Source of the DNA: Anaerolineae bacterium
Lineage (GTDB): Bacteria; Chloroflexota; Anaerolineae; Epilineales; Epilineaceae
Reading direction: 5' to 3'
DNA length: 64,000 nucleotides
NCBI GenBank assembly: GCA_034432155.1
Contig: DAOUCP010000035.1
Location: forward strand, 83,036 to 147,035
Both the position numbers and the translations under genes were made by a program. Below are positions 4,001-11,624 of the stretch, piece by piece; the first letter of the stretch is position 1; every line of letters starts with the position of its first letter. The notes under the pieces were generated by a model, which did no database searches, was not told the DNA's origin, and saw only the letters and a list, made by a program, of their open reading frames with translations.

Positions 4001-4619
4001 GTTCCTCGGCGACATCGAACGCAGTCTCGCAGGGACGGTGGTCACCTTCGCTGGCATGGTCACGGCGGTTCGGACACTCACCACCAAGCGCGGCGATCTT
4101 ATGGCCTTCGTCGTTGTCGAGGACCTGAACGGCAGCGTCGAGCTGACGGTCTTTCCGCGCGTCTACGAGGCCACCAAGGACCTCTGGCGACCAGACGTCC
4201 TCGTCCTGGTGCGCGGCAAGGTCGAACCACGAGAGGACCGCCTCCAGGTGGTGGTGGCCAGTGCCCAGTCCTACGCGCCGGATTCGCTCGCCGAGGTGGA
4301 GGAACCCGGCGCCAGCCAGTCGGCTGAGCCAGCCCAACGACCGCTAGGGCAGTACCGTCTTTCCGTCACTGTGCCTCGAACGGCGGACGATTCCCAGGAC
4401 CTGTCCCGTCTCGAGGAGATCTTCCGCCTGCTCACCAGCTTTCGGGGCCAAGACCGCTTCGCCCTGGTGGTCCCACGGGCCGAGGGCATGGTCGAGCTGG
4501 AATTCCCGAACGCCTCGACGCGCTACTGCGTCGCCCTGGTCCAGGAGCTGCAGCGCCTCGTGGGGGCAGGCGCCGTGCAGGTCACCCACGTCGCACACGG
4601 AAGGGAGAACGGTCCATGA
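1029..4619 (+). CDS. dnaE: DNA polymerase III alpha subunit
   Basis: The track ORF 555..4619 contains, from the in-frame ATG at 1029, MAATVVMASFTHLHVHSEYSLLDG. This covers the PHP domain, the polymerase core and a C-terminal OB fold. The likely true start is the second ATG at 1047 (MASFTHLHVHSEYS), downstream of a TGnTATAAT at 1022-1030. The stop overlaps the next gene (ATGA). Confidence 0.95.
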   Translation: MAATVVMASFTHLHVHSEYSLLDGLIRLPELAREARQAGFPALALTDHGVMYGAARFYHEAQEAGIKPILGCELYVARRLRTDRHPTRDRRSFHLTVLAENETGYRNLLQLVSRAQLEGFYYKPRVDRELVQRYAEGLVVLSGCLQGELPQALKDGDEATARQTLAWYRDVFGDRYYLELQDHNLDELATVNRGLLALAREFEVPLVATNDVHYLRATDVDAHEVLIQLQWKSTTQGRERRGYGPTYHLRSADEMAALFGHVPEALANTMVIAERCNVDLRFGERRLPDFPLPEGQTADSYLRQLCEAGAMERYGAVSEVIRERLDRELATIAAMGFATYFLIVWDLCRHARERGIWYNVRGSGAGSVVAYALRIANIDPLAHGLIFERFLNPARVSMPDIDLDLADDQRDELIRYAHERYGQDHVAQIITFGTLGARAAIRDAGRALELPLSLVDRIARMIPAIPGKPCSLDQVLTPAAADDEDSFFSAELAEAVHSDPDVRRLVESARSLEGLARHASTHAAGVVITDRPIIEYLPLHRSTHGEGDRSGLPVTQYAMKDIERLGLLKIDFLGLSTLTVLRRAAELVAEHHGVSIRLESIPLDDPAIYELLGSGNVTGVFQVESAGMRQMLREMQPRAFEHVTAALALYRPGPMRFIPDYIRRMHGQEEVTYLHPALVPILAETYGILIYQEQIIRIAQELAGYEPGKADLIRRAVGKKNQAELLKHHDAFVEGATERGIERQDAERIFELITKFARYGFNKAHAADYAMIVCQTAWFKARYPIEYMTALLSVDRHNTDKVALIATDCATNGIRILPPDVNQSQLDFTVEALPHDGSAEPRRAIRFGLGAIKNVGDAGAQAILAGRGDRPFANLDDLCRRVDLRAIGKRALEPLVRAGALDCLGSRDGILELLDRIISLSDTYHHASAVGQMSLFGDEIAPALPSLLPEITKGPGDVRQHLQWEKELTGLYLSDHPLHRVAAALPQDVTVFLGDIERSLAGTVVTFAGMVTAVRTLTTKRGDLMAFVVVEDLNGSVELTVFPRVYEATKDLWRPDVLVLVRGKVEPREDRLQVVVASAQSYAPDSLAEVEEPGASQSAEPAQRPLGQYRLSVTVPRTADDSQDLSRLEEIFRLLTSFRGQDRFALVVPRAEGMVELEFPNASTRYCVALVQELQRLVGAGAVQVTHVAHGRENGP

Positions 4620-11200: not shown

Positions 11201-11624
11201 CCTCGCGAATTTCGCCGATGTCGCCGGTGCGCTGGATGCCATCCCCTTCGATGCCGCGCCCGACAACGCGTTTATCTTCAGTCCGCAAGGGGCGATTTCG
11301 GCCGGCCCGGACCGATTCCACCTTGCCAGCGACGAGCTGGGATACCGCCTGGATCAGTGGACGGTGCCGATGAGCTGGGGATCCCAGACCACGCAGGCCA
11401 TCCAGAGGGTCAACGGGGCACCGCTGGCCGGTCAGCGAATCCTGGCCCTCTATCCGCAGAATGTGCCCGGCGACGGGGACATGCAGCTTCTGGCCATTCT
11501 AGAGGAGGAGGCGCCGACGCCGACGCCCATCGCCTTCCCGACCGACGAGCCGCCAGACCGCGACCACGACATCTTCCTGCCGGCAGCCCTGGTCAACGAG
11601 GTCATTGGCGTGGCCTCACCCTAG
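8274..11624 (+). CDS. Secreted S8 subtilisin-like serine protease B, paralog of A (I9 + S8 + PA)
   Basis: The track ORF 7809 overlaps protease A. The in-frame ATG at 8274 ([21 protein letters not shown]) gives a signal peptide with GGAGG 9 nt upstream. Motifs [39 protein letters not shown]. PA domain [36 protein letters not shown]. Long collinear identity to A. Confidence 0.85.
   Translation: [1116 protein letters not shown]

What the first reader, a model, noticed from the sequence alone, without database searches (positions are those of the whole stretch)
4616..11624. Expansion of PA-domain cell-envelope-type subtilases (A and B in tandem, D at 53303-56896, plus C) alongside GT39-family membrane glycosyltransferases
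Three paralogs share collinear I9-S8-PA architecture, with about 50% identity visible in the motifs flanking the catalytic residues. Two are adjacent. Two PMT_2/GT39-like enzymes (30910-33348 and 37335-39947) lie nearby; in Actinobacteria this family O-mannosylates secreted proteins. The proteases carry Pro/Thr-rich linkers (PTATPAPITATSPPTIAPTATAEATRP in A; [16 protein letters not shown] in B). This fits the idea that these proteases are substrates of a protein O-glycosylation system. Protease A and the clan GH-A hydrolase (39908-41656) both end in a hydrophobic helix followed by LLGWARN or GLGWLRRRPR. This may be a shared C-terminal anchoring or sorting tail.
Basis: inference. Interest (0 to 1): 0.5.

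Follow-up and report, generated by a model that had tools for sequence, protein, structure and literature searches.

The report
Secreted subtilase paralogs with YLP-box tails
Four secreted subtilisin-type proteases in a Chloroflexota chromosome are ordinary C5a-peptidase/Vpr-like enzymes; nothing links them to the nearby glycosyltransferases, and their real shared tail is a worn version of the short "YLP-box" motif that NCBI curators already list as a putative, still uncharacterised sorting signal.

Summary
A (4616-8107) and B (8274-11624) are tandem paralogs, 48% identical over about 1060 residues. D (53303-56896) is an older paralog at 32-34%. All three have a signal peptide, an I9-like propeptide, an S8 domain with a PA insert and three beta-sandwich domains. 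C (15369-19856) shares only the S8 core.

The proposed "helix + GW..R" tail is not real. The hydrolase ends in a true transmembrane helix. Protease A ends in an 11-residue apolar stretch with a proline that is invariant across homologs.

That proline belongs to a [basic]-phi-[Y/F]-[L/M]-P-phi-phi-x-[K/R] tail. The tail is widespread in Chloroflexota homologs of A, C, D and a beta-propeller protein. It is already modelled in NCBIfam as the "YLP-box putative sorting motif". Related proteases elsewhere carry TM+basic or SLH ends at the same position.

Verdict: new members of known kinds; modest interest.

The parts
4616..8107 (+). Subtilase A, 1163 aa: Sec signal peptide, a 17-aa x3 repeat, an I9-like propeptide (about residues 86-180), an S8 domain with a PA insert (208-685), three beta-sandwich domains (about 697-1115), a Pro/Thr linker and a short tail.
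   Evidence: Pfam. AlphaFold2 model with pLDDT 82.8 and pTM 0.80. Foldseek: ScpA 5e-37. phmmer against PDB: Vpr 9e-29.
7967..8050 (+). Pro/Thr-rich linker of A, residues 1118-1145.
   Evidence: Sequence. Predicted disordered: pLDDT below 50 from residue 1125.
8060..8089 (+). YLP-box-like tail core of A, GRLLLPMVLL (residues 1149-1158, Pro1154).
   Evidence: Pro1154 is invariant in the 28-sequence alignment. The tail PSSM scores it 8.6 bits; 0.13% of internal control windows from the window's own proteins reach 8 bits.
8274..11624 (+). Subtilase B, 1116 aa, tandem paralog of A with the same architecture.
   Evidence: Sister clade to A in the neighbour-joining tree.
11565..11594 (+). YLP-box-like tail core of B, [10 protein letters not shown] (residues 1098-1107).
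   Evidence: PSSM 12.9 bits. The stretch [11 protein letters not shown] is identical in ortholog P0004, while the residues after it diverge.
15369..19856 (+). Subtilase C, about 1495 aa: S8 without PA, CarboxypepD_reg, PEGA and DUF11. Its degenerate tail is ARLPLPCLLV at 19806-19835.
   Evidence: Pfam. The tail itself scores only 1.3 bits, but the C-like ortholog in L083 ends in ...ARPHIMLPVTLRQVDEDP (10.1 bits) at the same place.
53303..56896 (+). Subtilase D, 1197 aa (alternative GTG start at 53282), an older paralog of A and B. Its degenerate tail is NPLYAPELRR at 56843-56872.
   Evidence: Its relatives end in ...GTPIYLPYATQH...TEIYLPFNRK and ...MEIYLPSAER.
57284..59341 (+). Beta-propeller-repeat secreted or anchored protein, 685 aa, with a short Pro/Thr linker and the tail RRVCLPRIDSS.
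   Evidence: Ortholog P0122 (80% identity) ends in KRRPVYLPRICLPQR. A distant relative, P0124, ends in a TM helix plus basic residues instead.
30910..33348 (+). GT-C glycosyltransferase, Pfam PMT_2, 812 aa, with WYDE at residue 44 and DIHPPL at residue 68. It is not linked to the proteases.
37335..39947 (-). GT-C glycosyltransferase, Pfam PMT_2, 870 aa, with WWDE at residue 49 and DVHPPL at residue 73. The periplasmic C-terminal half has an alpha/beta domain and three beta-sandwiches.
39908..41656 (-). PslG-like clan GH-A hydrolase, 582 aa, with TM helices at both ends and the catalytic motifs WNEPN (residue 214) and ITEMG (residue 335). It forms a conserved gene pair with the 870-aa GT-C.
   Evidence: phmmer against PslG 5bx9, E 3.7e-8. 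Hydropathy. Adjacency is conserved in L084 and L082 at 79% and 54% identity. Motifs.
11357..14318 (+). Two GT4 (GT-B) glycosyltransferase genes between B and C. Coordinates are ORF limits; the true starts lie further downstream.
   Evidence: Pfam. The order subtilase, GT4, GT4, (GT9), small protein, subtilase C is conserved in L081 and L083.

Best explanation
The window is a housekeeping stretch of a high-GC Chloroflexota chromosome, from the Anaerolineae and close to Ardenticatenales. It encodes four Sec-exported subtilases.

A, B and D are catalytically competent enzymes of the C5a-peptidase / Vpr / cell-envelope-proteinase type. Each has a signal peptide, an I9-like propeptide that is probably removed autocatalytically at a disordered junction, an S8 domain with a PA insert, and three Fn3-like beta-sandwich domains. 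A and B arose by a tandem duplication within one sub-lineage; D is an older paralog. They most likely serve extracellular protein degradation.

Instead of the LPXTG anchor of Gram-positive cell-envelope proteinases, they end in a lineage-typical ultrashort motif: [basic]-phi-[Y/F]-[L/M]-P-phi-phi-x-[K/R]. In A and B a Pro/Thr-rich spacer precedes it. This is the 'YLP-box', which NCBIfam lists as a putative sorting motif. The copies in this genome are degenerate: LLLP, IFLP, LPLP, LYAP and VCLP.

Inferred, not shown: after Sec export the motif acts as a retention or sorting signal at the cell surface, and the unconserved residues that follow the Pro are dispensable.

The two PMT_2 GT-C enzymes and the PslG-like hydrolase belong to separate envelope-glycan functions. 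No evidence connects them to the proteases.
For: Architecture and catalytic residues.

Phylogeny and synteny:
- A and its orthologs are the sister clade of B and its ortholog; D is the outgroup.
- A more distant genome has a single PA-subtilase at the same locus after dnaE.

Taxonomic placement: the nearest named relatives are Ardenticatenales and Anaerolineae MAGs.

Tail evidence:
- The tail Pro is invariant in 28 homologs, D included.
- 49 of 120 homologs of A carry a tail of at least 8 bits. Forty-three of these were used to train the scoring matrix.
- In an independent set, 39 of 138 relatives of D score at least 8 bits. Internal control windows reach that score at 0.1-0.5%.
- NCBIfam NF053834 'ultrashort_CTERM' and NF050076 'sort_motif_YLP' hit canonical homolog tails.
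- The same tail occurs on unrelated families in related genomes: a DUF1501 protein, a C-like subtilase, an SdrD_B/CarboxypepD_reg protein and a beta-propeller protein.
- In the regex census of 80 related loci, clear tails fell almost entirely in Chloroflexota loci.
- At the same C-terminal position, homologs outside the YLP-tail group (taxonomy not given for most) carry TM+basic MYXO-CTERM-like ends, SLH domains or an FYRxxxE end. This 'choice of anchor' pattern is what is expected of a sorting signal.
- Between close orthologs, conservation is centred on the motif core and not on what follows it.
Against: - The window's own tails do not reach the curated NCBIfam models in this tool. The tool detects only 2-3 of 62 tails, so this is a weak negative.
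- The tails of C (1.3 bits), D (4.3 bits) and the beta-propeller protein (-1.8 bits) are not significant on their own. Their assignment rests on the tails of their homologs.
- No cognate sorting enzyme is known or was found.
- No paper on the motif exists in the searchable library.
- AlphaFold gives the linker and tail no structure.
- A role as a sorting signal is inference only. The degenerate tails could be non-functional.
Confidence: 0.65

Rival explanations
1. The Pro/Thr linkers of the proteases are O-mannosylated by the two nearby PMT_2/GT39-like GT-C enzymes, so the proteases are substrates of a protein O-glycosylation system encoded in the same region.
For: - Pro/Thr linkers are present in A, B and most of their homologs.
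- Both GT-C proteins carry the loop-1 W[YW]DE motif.
- NCBI names homologs 'glycosyltransferase family 39 protein'.
- From established knowledge, actinobacterial GT39 enzymes mannosylate Pro/Thr-rich secreted proteins.
Against: - There is no adjacency. The genes are 19-26 kb apart with unrelated housekeeping genes between them, in a block whose order is conserved as a whole.
- There is no hit to Pfam PMT PF02366 or PMT_4TMC at E below 0.01, and NCBIfam gives only sub-threshold hits.
- ArnT, ALG12 and AglB score almost as well as Pmt4.
- The 870-aa enzyme is in a conserved pair with a PslG-like polysaccharide hydrolase and carries CBM-like beta-sandwiches.
- Proteases C and D have no Pro/Thr linker.
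Confidence: 0.12
2. Protease A and the GH-A hydrolase share a C-terminal sorting tail, a hydrophobic helix plus GW(A/L)R, that is handled by a sortase- or exosortase-like partner.
For: Both sequences do contain G-W followed by Arg near the C-terminus.
Against: - The hydrolase tail is a genuine TM segment (Kyte-Doolittle 19-residue mean 2.16). A's tail is not (0.58, 11 apolar residues with a Pro).
- GW is absent from A's 76%-identical ortholog, which ends in ...GRLCLPALLLSFGRQ.
- GW is also absent from the hydrolase's 79%-identical ortholog, which ends in ...LLLAGVVARRCRRARPGRD.
- No NCBIfam sorting-signal model hits either tail.
Confidence: 0.03
3. The YLP-like tails in this genome are decaying relics, or a chance resemblance, with no present function. 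The proteases are simply released into the medium.
For: - The aromatic residue is lost in A, C and the beta-propeller protein, and the Leu is lost in D.
- PSSM scores for C, D and the beta-propeller protein are not significant.
- The curated HMMs do not report the window's tails.
Against: - The core is strongly conserved between the window genome and its 76%-identical relative: [11 protein letters not shown] is identical in B, and GRL-x-LP is kept in A.
- The Pro is invariant over 28 sequences.
- The flanking residues diverge, which argues for selection on the motif.
Confidence: 0.15
4. The YLP-box is real, but it is a C-terminal processing or maturation site rather than an anchoring signal. 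For example, it could mark where a C-terminal extension is clipped off, or serve as a recognition peptide for a periplasmic chaperone or protease.
For: - The residues after the Pro vary from 3 to more than 40 aa. In some relatives they form long Pro/Thr-rich extensions (P0214, P0217, P0218, P0223), as expected of a removable segment.
- There is no TM helix to hold the protein in place for a transpeptidase.
Against: - The 'choice of anchor' pattern places the motif where other lineages have true anchors.
- NCBIfam curators classify it as a sorting motif.
- The evidence obtained here does not distinguish the two roles.
Confidence: 0.15

Closest known systems
Streptococcal C5a peptidase ScpA/ScpB and SpyCEP; lactococcal cell-envelope proteinases (MEROPS S8A with PA insert)
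   Same: The domain order is the same: an S8 catalytic domain with a PA domain inserted between His and Ser, followed by Fn3-like beta-sandwich domains. Foldseek gives E 5e-37 over about 1100 aligned columns, and phmmer gives E 2e-20.
   Different: Sequence identity is only about 15% in the structural alignment. There is no LPXTG, TM helix and basic-tail anchor. The proteins end instead in a Pro/Thr linker and a YLP-box-like ultrashort tail. The host is a Chloroflexota bacterium, not a Firmicute.
Bacillus Vpr (minor extracellular serine protease; PDB 8jmw, fibril form; PMC10657474)
   Same: Vpr is the best sequence match among solved structures: E 9.4e-29 over residues 186-762. JGI annotates many homologs as Vpr.
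   Different: A, B and D are about 350 residues longer and have additional C-terminal beta-sandwich domains and the tail. Fibril formation was not tested.
NCBIfam NF053834 'ultrashort_CTERM' and NF050076 'sort_motif_YLP' (YLP-box putative sorting motif)
   Same: The position is the same, at the C-terminus of signal-peptide proteins. The core is the same: phi-[Y/F]-[L/M]-P-phi-phi-phi-[K/R]. Tails of direct homologs hit the models at or above the NF053834 cutoff: 14.5 bits for P0062 and 12.6 bits for P0049, against a cutoff of 10.
   Different: The window's tails are divergent. The aromatic residue or the Leu is replaced, and 5-13 residues follow the Pro instead of about 4. The models do not report them.
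Protein O-mannosyltransferases (GT39: yeast Pmt1/2/4, Mycobacterium Rv1002c) and ArnT (GT83)
   Different: There is no hit to Pfam PMT or PMT_4TMC, and no MIR domain. The proteins have a large C-terminal periplasmic region of CBM-like beta-sandwiches. One is in a conserved pair with a PslG-like hydrolase. The acceptor is unknown.
Pseudomonas aeruginosa PslG (GH39 exopolysaccharide hydrolase)
   Same: PslG is the only significant solved relative of the 39908-41656 protein, at E 3.7e-8. Both have an N-terminal membrane anchor, and the clan GH-A acid/base (WNEPN) and nucleophile (ITEMG) motifs are present.
   Different: The window protein has an extra C-terminal domain and a second, C-terminal TM helix. 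It has no Pfam hit. Its gene neighbour is a GT-C enzyme, not a psl-type operon.

Membership tests
Peptidase S8A subtilases with PA insert (C5a-peptidase / cell-envelope proteinase / Vpr type) | Asp-His-Ser catalytic triad in subtilisin order, within the conserved motifs. | tested here: met
   A D217/H283/S614, B D181/H247/S585, D D250/H330/S670. The three positions are invariant in the 28-sequence alignment. Pfam S8 gives E 5.7e-40, 5.4e-44 and 9e-28.
Peptidase S8A subtilases with PA insert (C5a-peptidase / cell-envelope proteinase / Vpr type) | PA domain inserted between the catalytic His and Ser. | tested here: met
   Pfam PA at A 466-540, B 435-512 and D (numbered from the 52841 ORF) 660-750, all inside the S8 envelope.
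Peptidase S8A subtilases with PA insert (C5a-peptidase / cell-envelope proteinase / Vpr type) | N-terminal I9-type propeptide. | tested here: met
   B reaches the Pfam I9 threshold at 25.1 bits against a cutoff of 21.2. A's model shows an alpha/beta propeptide domain at about residues 86-180, followed by a disordered junction at 186-194. For A and D this is based on structure and alignment only.
Peptidase S8A subtilases with PA insert (C5a-peptidase / cell-envelope proteinase / Vpr type) | Fn3-like beta-sandwich domains C-terminal to the catalytic domain. | tested here: met
   The AlphaFold model has three beta-sandwich domains at about 697-1115. Foldseek aligns about 1100 columns with ScpA/ScpB.
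Peptidase S8A subtilases with PA insert (C5a-peptidase / cell-envelope proteinase / Vpr type) | LPXTG, TM helix and basic cell-wall sorting signal, as in Gram-positive cell-envelope proteinases. | tested here: not met
   None of the four proteins has an LPXTG motif or a C-terminal TM helix.
YLP-box putative sorting motif (NCBIfam NF053834 / NF050076) | Score at or above the curated cutoff of the HMM. | tested here: inconclusive
   The window's tails give no reported hit, whereas homolog tails do: P0062 at 14.5 bits and P0049 at 12.6 bits. Only 2-3 of 62 evident tails are reported by this tool, so sensitivity is low. My own PSSM gives B 12.9, A 8.6, D 4.3 and C 1.3 bits.
YLP-box putative sorting motif (NCBIfam NF053834 / NF050076) | Located at the extreme C-terminus of a protein that has an N-terminal signal peptide. 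| tested here: met
   The motif Pro lies 9 (A), 13 (B), 10 (C) and 11 (D) residues from the end. N-terminal hydrophobic segments score KD19 1.6-2.0 in A, B and C. D is weaker from the ATG start (1.05), but a GTG start at 53282 would add an RRR n-region.
YLP-box putative sorting motif (NCBIfam NF053834 / NF050076) | Homologous position to canonical YLP-boxes in orthologs and paralogs. | tested here: met
   The Pro is invariant in alignment A1. Canonical tails are found in relatives of C, of D and of the beta-propeller protein.
YLP-box putative sorting motif (NCBIfam NF053834 / NF050076) | A cognate sorting enzyme, or demonstrated processing. | not testable with these tools
   No enzyme is known, and no literature was found.
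GT39 protein O-mannosyltransferase | Match to Pfam PMT (PF02366) and PMT_4TMC (PF16192). | tested here: not met
   Only PMT_2 (PF13231) is reported at E up to 0.01, at 27.0 and 45.1 bits. NCBIfam hits (Agl23, MT1671 mannosyltransferase) fall far below their cutoffs. No PDB sequence match is found at E up to 1.
GT39 protein O-mannosyltransferase | Asp-Glu motif in the first extracytoplasmic loop. | tested here: met
   WYDE at residue 44 and WWDE at residue 49. W49, W50, D51 and E52 are invariant in 36 homologs. To my knowledge the motif is not specific to GT39 among GT-C enzymes.
GT39 protein O-mannosyltransferase | Fold closer to PMTs than to other GT-C enzymes. | tested here: inconclusive
GT39 protein O-mannosyltransferase | Protein Ser/Thr acceptor. 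| not testable with these tools
   This requires biochemistry or glycoproteomics.
Tripartite C-terminal sorting signals (LPXTG, PEP-CTERM, MYXO-CTERM, GlyGly-CTERM type) | Signature motif, then a TM helix of about 18-20 residues, then a basic cluster. | tested here: not met
   A's C-terminal KD19 maximum is 0.58 and its longest apolar run is 11 residues. No NCBIfam sorting model hits it. The hydrolase has a TM helix and a basic cluster but no signature motif, and its ortholog's tail differs.

The most novel reading that the evidence does not exclude
The YLP-box is the signal of a still undiscovered surface-sorting or attachment pathway of Chloroflexota. In this reading it is an 'ultrashort' signal with no transmembrane helix, and the variable residues after the Pro act as a leaving group. 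This genome's lineage uses a relaxed variant (phi-phi-L-P, with the aromatic residue dispensable) on at least five secreted proteins. The four subtilases would then be cell-surface-retained proteases, and this locus together with its orthologs would give a natural series of motif variants for defining the recognition rules.
Probability: 0.3. Interest if true: 0.6.

Novelty: new member of a known kind. Interest (0 to 1): 0.3.

Why it matters
The protease expansion itself is routine. Large PA-domain subtilases are common in Chloroflexota, Verrucomicrobiota, Bdellovibrionota and Actinomycetota, with 11,847 relatives at E up to 1e-3 among 1.84 billion cluster representatives.

The useful results are corrections:
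- Proximity to 'GT39' genes here reflects conserved chromosome order, not a functional cluster.
- The Pfam name PMT_2 should not be read as protein O-mannosylation.
- The C-terminal feature worth attention is the YLP-box, not a 'GW-R' tail. It is a database-level putative sorting motif with no known machinery and no literature in the library searched.

How Chloroflexota retain secreted enzymes on their surface is an open question. These loci show that the motif sits exactly where other phyla place established anchors.

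Tried and rejected
1. Treating the A tail as a TM anchor. Rejected on hydropathy and on the ortholog tails.
2. Looking for a named sorting signal in NCBIfam with the full-length proteins gave nothing. Scanning tails alone revealed the YLP-box models. Scanning 62 tails showed that the tool reports only 2-3 of them, so the models cannot be used here as a membership test.
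3. Literature searches found nothing relevant. They covered tail strings (YLPLI and similar), 'YLP-box', 'sorting motif' with Chloroflexota, 'YLP' with Chloroflex, sortase with 'C-terminal sorting' and Chloroflex, and GT39 with Chloroflex.
4. A regex census of C-termini in 80 related loci was too coarse, so I replaced it with a PSSM and internal-window controls. The sample of non-protease Chloroflexota genes, about 250, is too small for a proteome-wide statement.
5. Searching for a cognate enzyme near the genes turned up no sortase, exosortase, rhombosortase or CPBP candidate in the window. A rhomboid gene lies near the GH/GT-C pair in L082 only and is not conserved.
6. An exact look-up of protease A to extend the contig and name the genome failed. 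The cluster look-up gave no names.
7. phmmer of the two PMT_2 proteins against PDB sequences found nothing, so fold comparison was needed.
8. Rfam and tRNA scans of the window found nothing.

Full report
**1. What is there**

The window has about 68% G+C and carries mostly housekeeping genes: dnaE, selB, hrcA, dnaJ, prmA, guaA, dnaB, ligA and ahcY. Four large subtilase genes sit among them:
- A, 4616-8107, 1163 aa.
- B, 8274-11624, 1116 aa. The ORF is open from 7809. The ATG at 8274 has a GGAGG upstream and matches the database protein P0005.
- D, 53303-56896, 1197 aa. A GTG at 53282 is an alternative start.
- C, 15369-19856, about 1495 aa.

Pfam finds Peptidase_S8 with an inserted PA domain in A, B and D. 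It finds Inhibitor_I9 in B. In C it finds S8 without PA, plus CarboxypepD_reg, PEGA and DUF11.

BLASTP identities are 48% for A-B over 1063 columns, 32% for A-D and 34% for B-D over about 1000 columns. C matches the others only in the S8 core. The catalytic Asp, His and Ser are present in all four and invariant in a 28-sequence alignment.

**2. What kind of subtilase**

An AlphaFold2 model of A was built on 28 homologs and reached pLDDT 82.8 and pTM 0.80. It shows these segments:
- a disordered N-terminus at residues 1-58, covering the signal peptide and a 17-aa x3 repeat;
- an alpha/beta propeptide at about 86-180;
- a disordered junction at 186-194;
- the S8/PA unit;
- three beta-sandwich domains at about 697-1115;
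- a disordered end from residue 1125.

Foldseek against the PDB ranks ScpA/ScpB C5a peptidases first (E about 5e-37 over about 1100 columns). SpyCEP, cucumisin, SBT3 and Vpr follow. By sequence the best solved relative is Bacillus Vpr, entry 8jmw, at E 9.4e-29. 'Cell-envelope-type PA-domain subtilase' is therefore a fair label. There is no LPXTG anchor.

**3. History of the paralogs**

The protein search returns the window's own proteins (P0001, P0005) and orthologs of both A and B (P0002 at 76% identity, and P0004) on a single contig of assembly GCA_900174595.1. That contig keeps the order dnaE, A, B, GT4, GT4, small protein, C.

A more distant genome (ERZ25039603, about 44% identity) has only one PA-subtilase after dnaE. 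It is followed by GT4, GT4, GT9, a small protein and a C-like subtilase.

In a neighbour-joining tree, A with its orthologs is the sister group of B with its ortholog, and D is the outgroup. A and B therefore arose by a tandem duplication inside one sub-lineage, and D is an older paralog. The named relatives are Ardenticatenales and Anaerolineae MAGs.

**4. The glycosylation idea**

The two PMT_2 proteins are real GT-C enzymes:
- Both carry W[YW]DE after the first TM helix, and D[IV]HPPL. WWDE and DVHPP are invariant in 36 homologs.
- They hit only Pfam PMT_2, one of them barely (27.0 bits against a cutoff of 26.1). They do not hit PMT or PMT_4TMC. NCBIfam gives only sub-threshold hits, and no PDB sequence matches.

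Gene context argues against a link to the proteases:
- The PMT_2 genes lie 19-26 kb from A/B, behind selB, hrcA, dnaJ, prmA, rsmE, queF and guaA.
- The same order is kept in the two related genomes. Proximity is therefore inherited chromosome order.
- What is conserved next to the 870-aa GT-C is the 39908-41656 gene. It is present in all three genomes, at 79% and 54% identity.
- That gene is a PslG-like clan GH-A hydrolase. phmmer gives E 3.7e-8 against PslG, and the WNEPN and ITEMG catalytic motifs are present.
- The GT-C's periplasmic half consists of beta-sandwiches. They resemble GH2 sugar-binding domains, the Wzt carbohydrate-binding domain and RbmA.

Together this points to an envelope-polysaccharide role. 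Pro/Thr linkers do exist in A and B and in most of their homologs, but not in C or D. O-glycosylation of the linkers is neither shown nor excluded. I give it about 0.12.

**5. The tail**

Two tests reject this:
- Hydropathy separates the two tails. The hydrolase's C-terminal 19-residue window scores 2.16, a TM helix. A's scores 0.58, and its longest apolar run is 11 residues and contains a Pro.
- The GW is not conserved. A's ortholog ends in ...GRLCLPALLLSFGRQ, and the hydrolase's ortholog ends in ...LLLAGVVARRCRRARPGRD.

What is conserved in A is the Pro at residue 1154. It is invariant across all 28 aligned homologs, D included. The C-termini of the homologs show a common pattern. A Pro/Thr linker is followed by [basic]-phi-[Y/F/H/L]-[L/M]-P-phi-phi-x-[K/R], as in RIYLPLLKKEQ, KQFLPLILR and NIYLPLLLK.

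I built a position matrix from 43 such tails, excluding the window's own proteins and their nearest orthologs. It scores B's tail ([10 protein letters not shown]) at 12.9 bits and A's tail (GRLLLPMVLL) at 8.6 bits. Among random internal windows of the window's own proteins, 0.13% reach 8 bits and none reach 10.

The tails of D (NPLYAPELRR, 4.3 bits), C (ARLPLPCLLV, 1.3 bits) and the beta-propeller protein at 57284-59341 (RRVCLPRIDS, -1.8 bits) are not significant alone. Their relatives, however, carry clear copies at the same place:
- The C-like subtilase in L083 ends in ...ARPHIMLPVTLRQVDEDP, 10.1 bits.
- Relatives of D end in ...GTPIYLPYATQH...TEIYLPFNRK and ...MEIYLPSAER. In this independent set, 39 of 138 score at least 8 bits.
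- The 80%-identical ortholog of the beta-propeller protein ends in KRRPVYLPRICLPQR.

The tail also occurs on a DUF1501 protein and on an SdrD_B/CarboxypepD_reg protein in related genomes.

**6. Is the tail known?**

Scanning tails alone against NCBIfam returned two models, both described as 'YLP-box putative sorting motif-containing protein':
- NF053834 'ultrashort_CTERM', 10 positions, cutoff 10 bits.
- NF050076 'sort_motif_YLP', 11 positions, cutoff 15 bits.

They hit canonical homolog tails: P0062 at 14.5 bits and P0049 at 12.6 bits. The motif is therefore already catalogued. In this tool the models report only 2-3 of 62 evident tails, so their silence on the window's tails says little. I found no paper on the motif in the library.

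**7. How it most likely works**

Shown:
- The proteins carry N-terminal signal-like hydrophobic segments.
- The tail is unstructured in the model.
- The tail is too short to span a membrane.
- Between close orthologs the motif core is conserved while the residues after it diverge.
- In some relatives 15-40 Pro/Thr-rich residues follow the motif.
- In the same protease family, other homologs end instead in TM helix plus basic MYXO-CTERM-like tails (9 of 120), SLH domains, or an FYRxxxE end (10 of 120), against 49 of 120 with YLP tails.

Inferred: this 'choice of anchor' substitution suggests that the YLP-box is a post-export retention or sorting signal. The variable segment after the Pro suggests that this segment is dispensable and possibly removed. 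No enzyme is known, and none was found in the window. The degenerate copies here may be a relaxed variant or may be decaying.

**8. Verdict**

These are new members of known kinds: Vpr/C5a-peptidase-like subtilases, PMT_2 GT-C enzymes, a PslG-like hydrolase and YLP-box tails. The functional story, O-glycosylation substrates and a tail shared with the hydrolase, is not supported. The residual interest lies in the uncharacterised YLP-box.

Noticed in passing
window 4616-4619; L081 10001-10004: The dnaE stop codon overlaps the start codon of secreted protease A (ATGA), and a GGAAGGGAG lies upstream. A PA-subtilase directly follows dnaE on the same strand in all three related genomes examined. This is an odd, conserved coupling of a replication gene with an exported protease.
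   Followed up: partly
window 4680-4830; 53404-53509; 31565-31683; 32983-33117: There are in-frame tandem DNA repeats of 42-51 bp inside genes for exported or membrane proteins. A's N-terminus has 51 bp x3 at 93% match, just after the signal peptide. D's N-terminus has 45 bp x2.4. The 812-aa PMT_2 protein has two arrays of 42 bp.
   Followed up: partly
window 11357-15284; L081 16959-20853; L083 13558-18038: Two GT4 glycosyltransferase genes and a small gene of unknown function lie between the PA-subtilase(s) and subtilase C. L083 has an additional GT9. The arrangement is conserved in three genomes. Whether these cytoplasmic GTs relate functionally to the flanking proteases is unknown.
   Followed up: no
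window 37335-41656 (- strand); L084 8307-12568; L082 8814-12568: A PslG-like GH-A hydrolase and an 855-870-aa PMT_2 GT-C enzyme form a conserved gene pair with overlapping or nearly abutting reading frames. This suggests an uncharacterised envelope-glycan module in Ardenticatenales-like Chloroflexota.
   Followed up: partly
window 57284-59341: This 685-aa protein has no Pfam hit. It is built of WAVG...HYDG...W beta-propeller-like repeats, and its distant relatives carry the Tectonin and PSII_BNR families. It has only four database relatives. It ends in a Pro/Thr linker and RRVCLPRIDSS.
   Followed up: partly
proteins P0214, P0217, P0218, P0223 (relatives of D): In some relatives the YLP motif is not terminal and is followed by 15-40 Pro/Thr/Glu-rich residues. 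An example is ...TLYLPLVMPNHDLTAPYQEPTPTP. This is unexpected for an 'ultrashort C-terminal' signal and may bear on its mechanism.
   Followed up: no
proteins P0115, P0118, P0119: PKD-domain subtilase relatives end in ...NDAATSDGSYLPM[TMA]R. Here a YLP-like end immediately follows what looks like a folded domain rather than a linker. This may be a separate variant of the motif.
   Followed up: no
L082 6709-7482: A rhomboid-family gene sits next to the GH/GT-C pair in the more distant genome. It is absent from the corresponding place in the window and in L084.
   Followed up: no
window 42074-43582 (- strand): The helicase-loader-like protein next to dnaB shows two IstB_IS21/AAA stretches, so the ATPase module is duplicated. 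In L082 the corresponding called gene is 790 aa and also lists a Glyco_transf_9 hit, which may be an assembly or gene-calling artefact.
   Followed up: no
window 21065-22987 and 61642-62571: A SelB selenocysteine elongation factor gene is present, but the window has no tRNA and no Rfam hit. A glutaminyl cyclase with a signal-like N-terminus lies near protease D.
   Followed up: no
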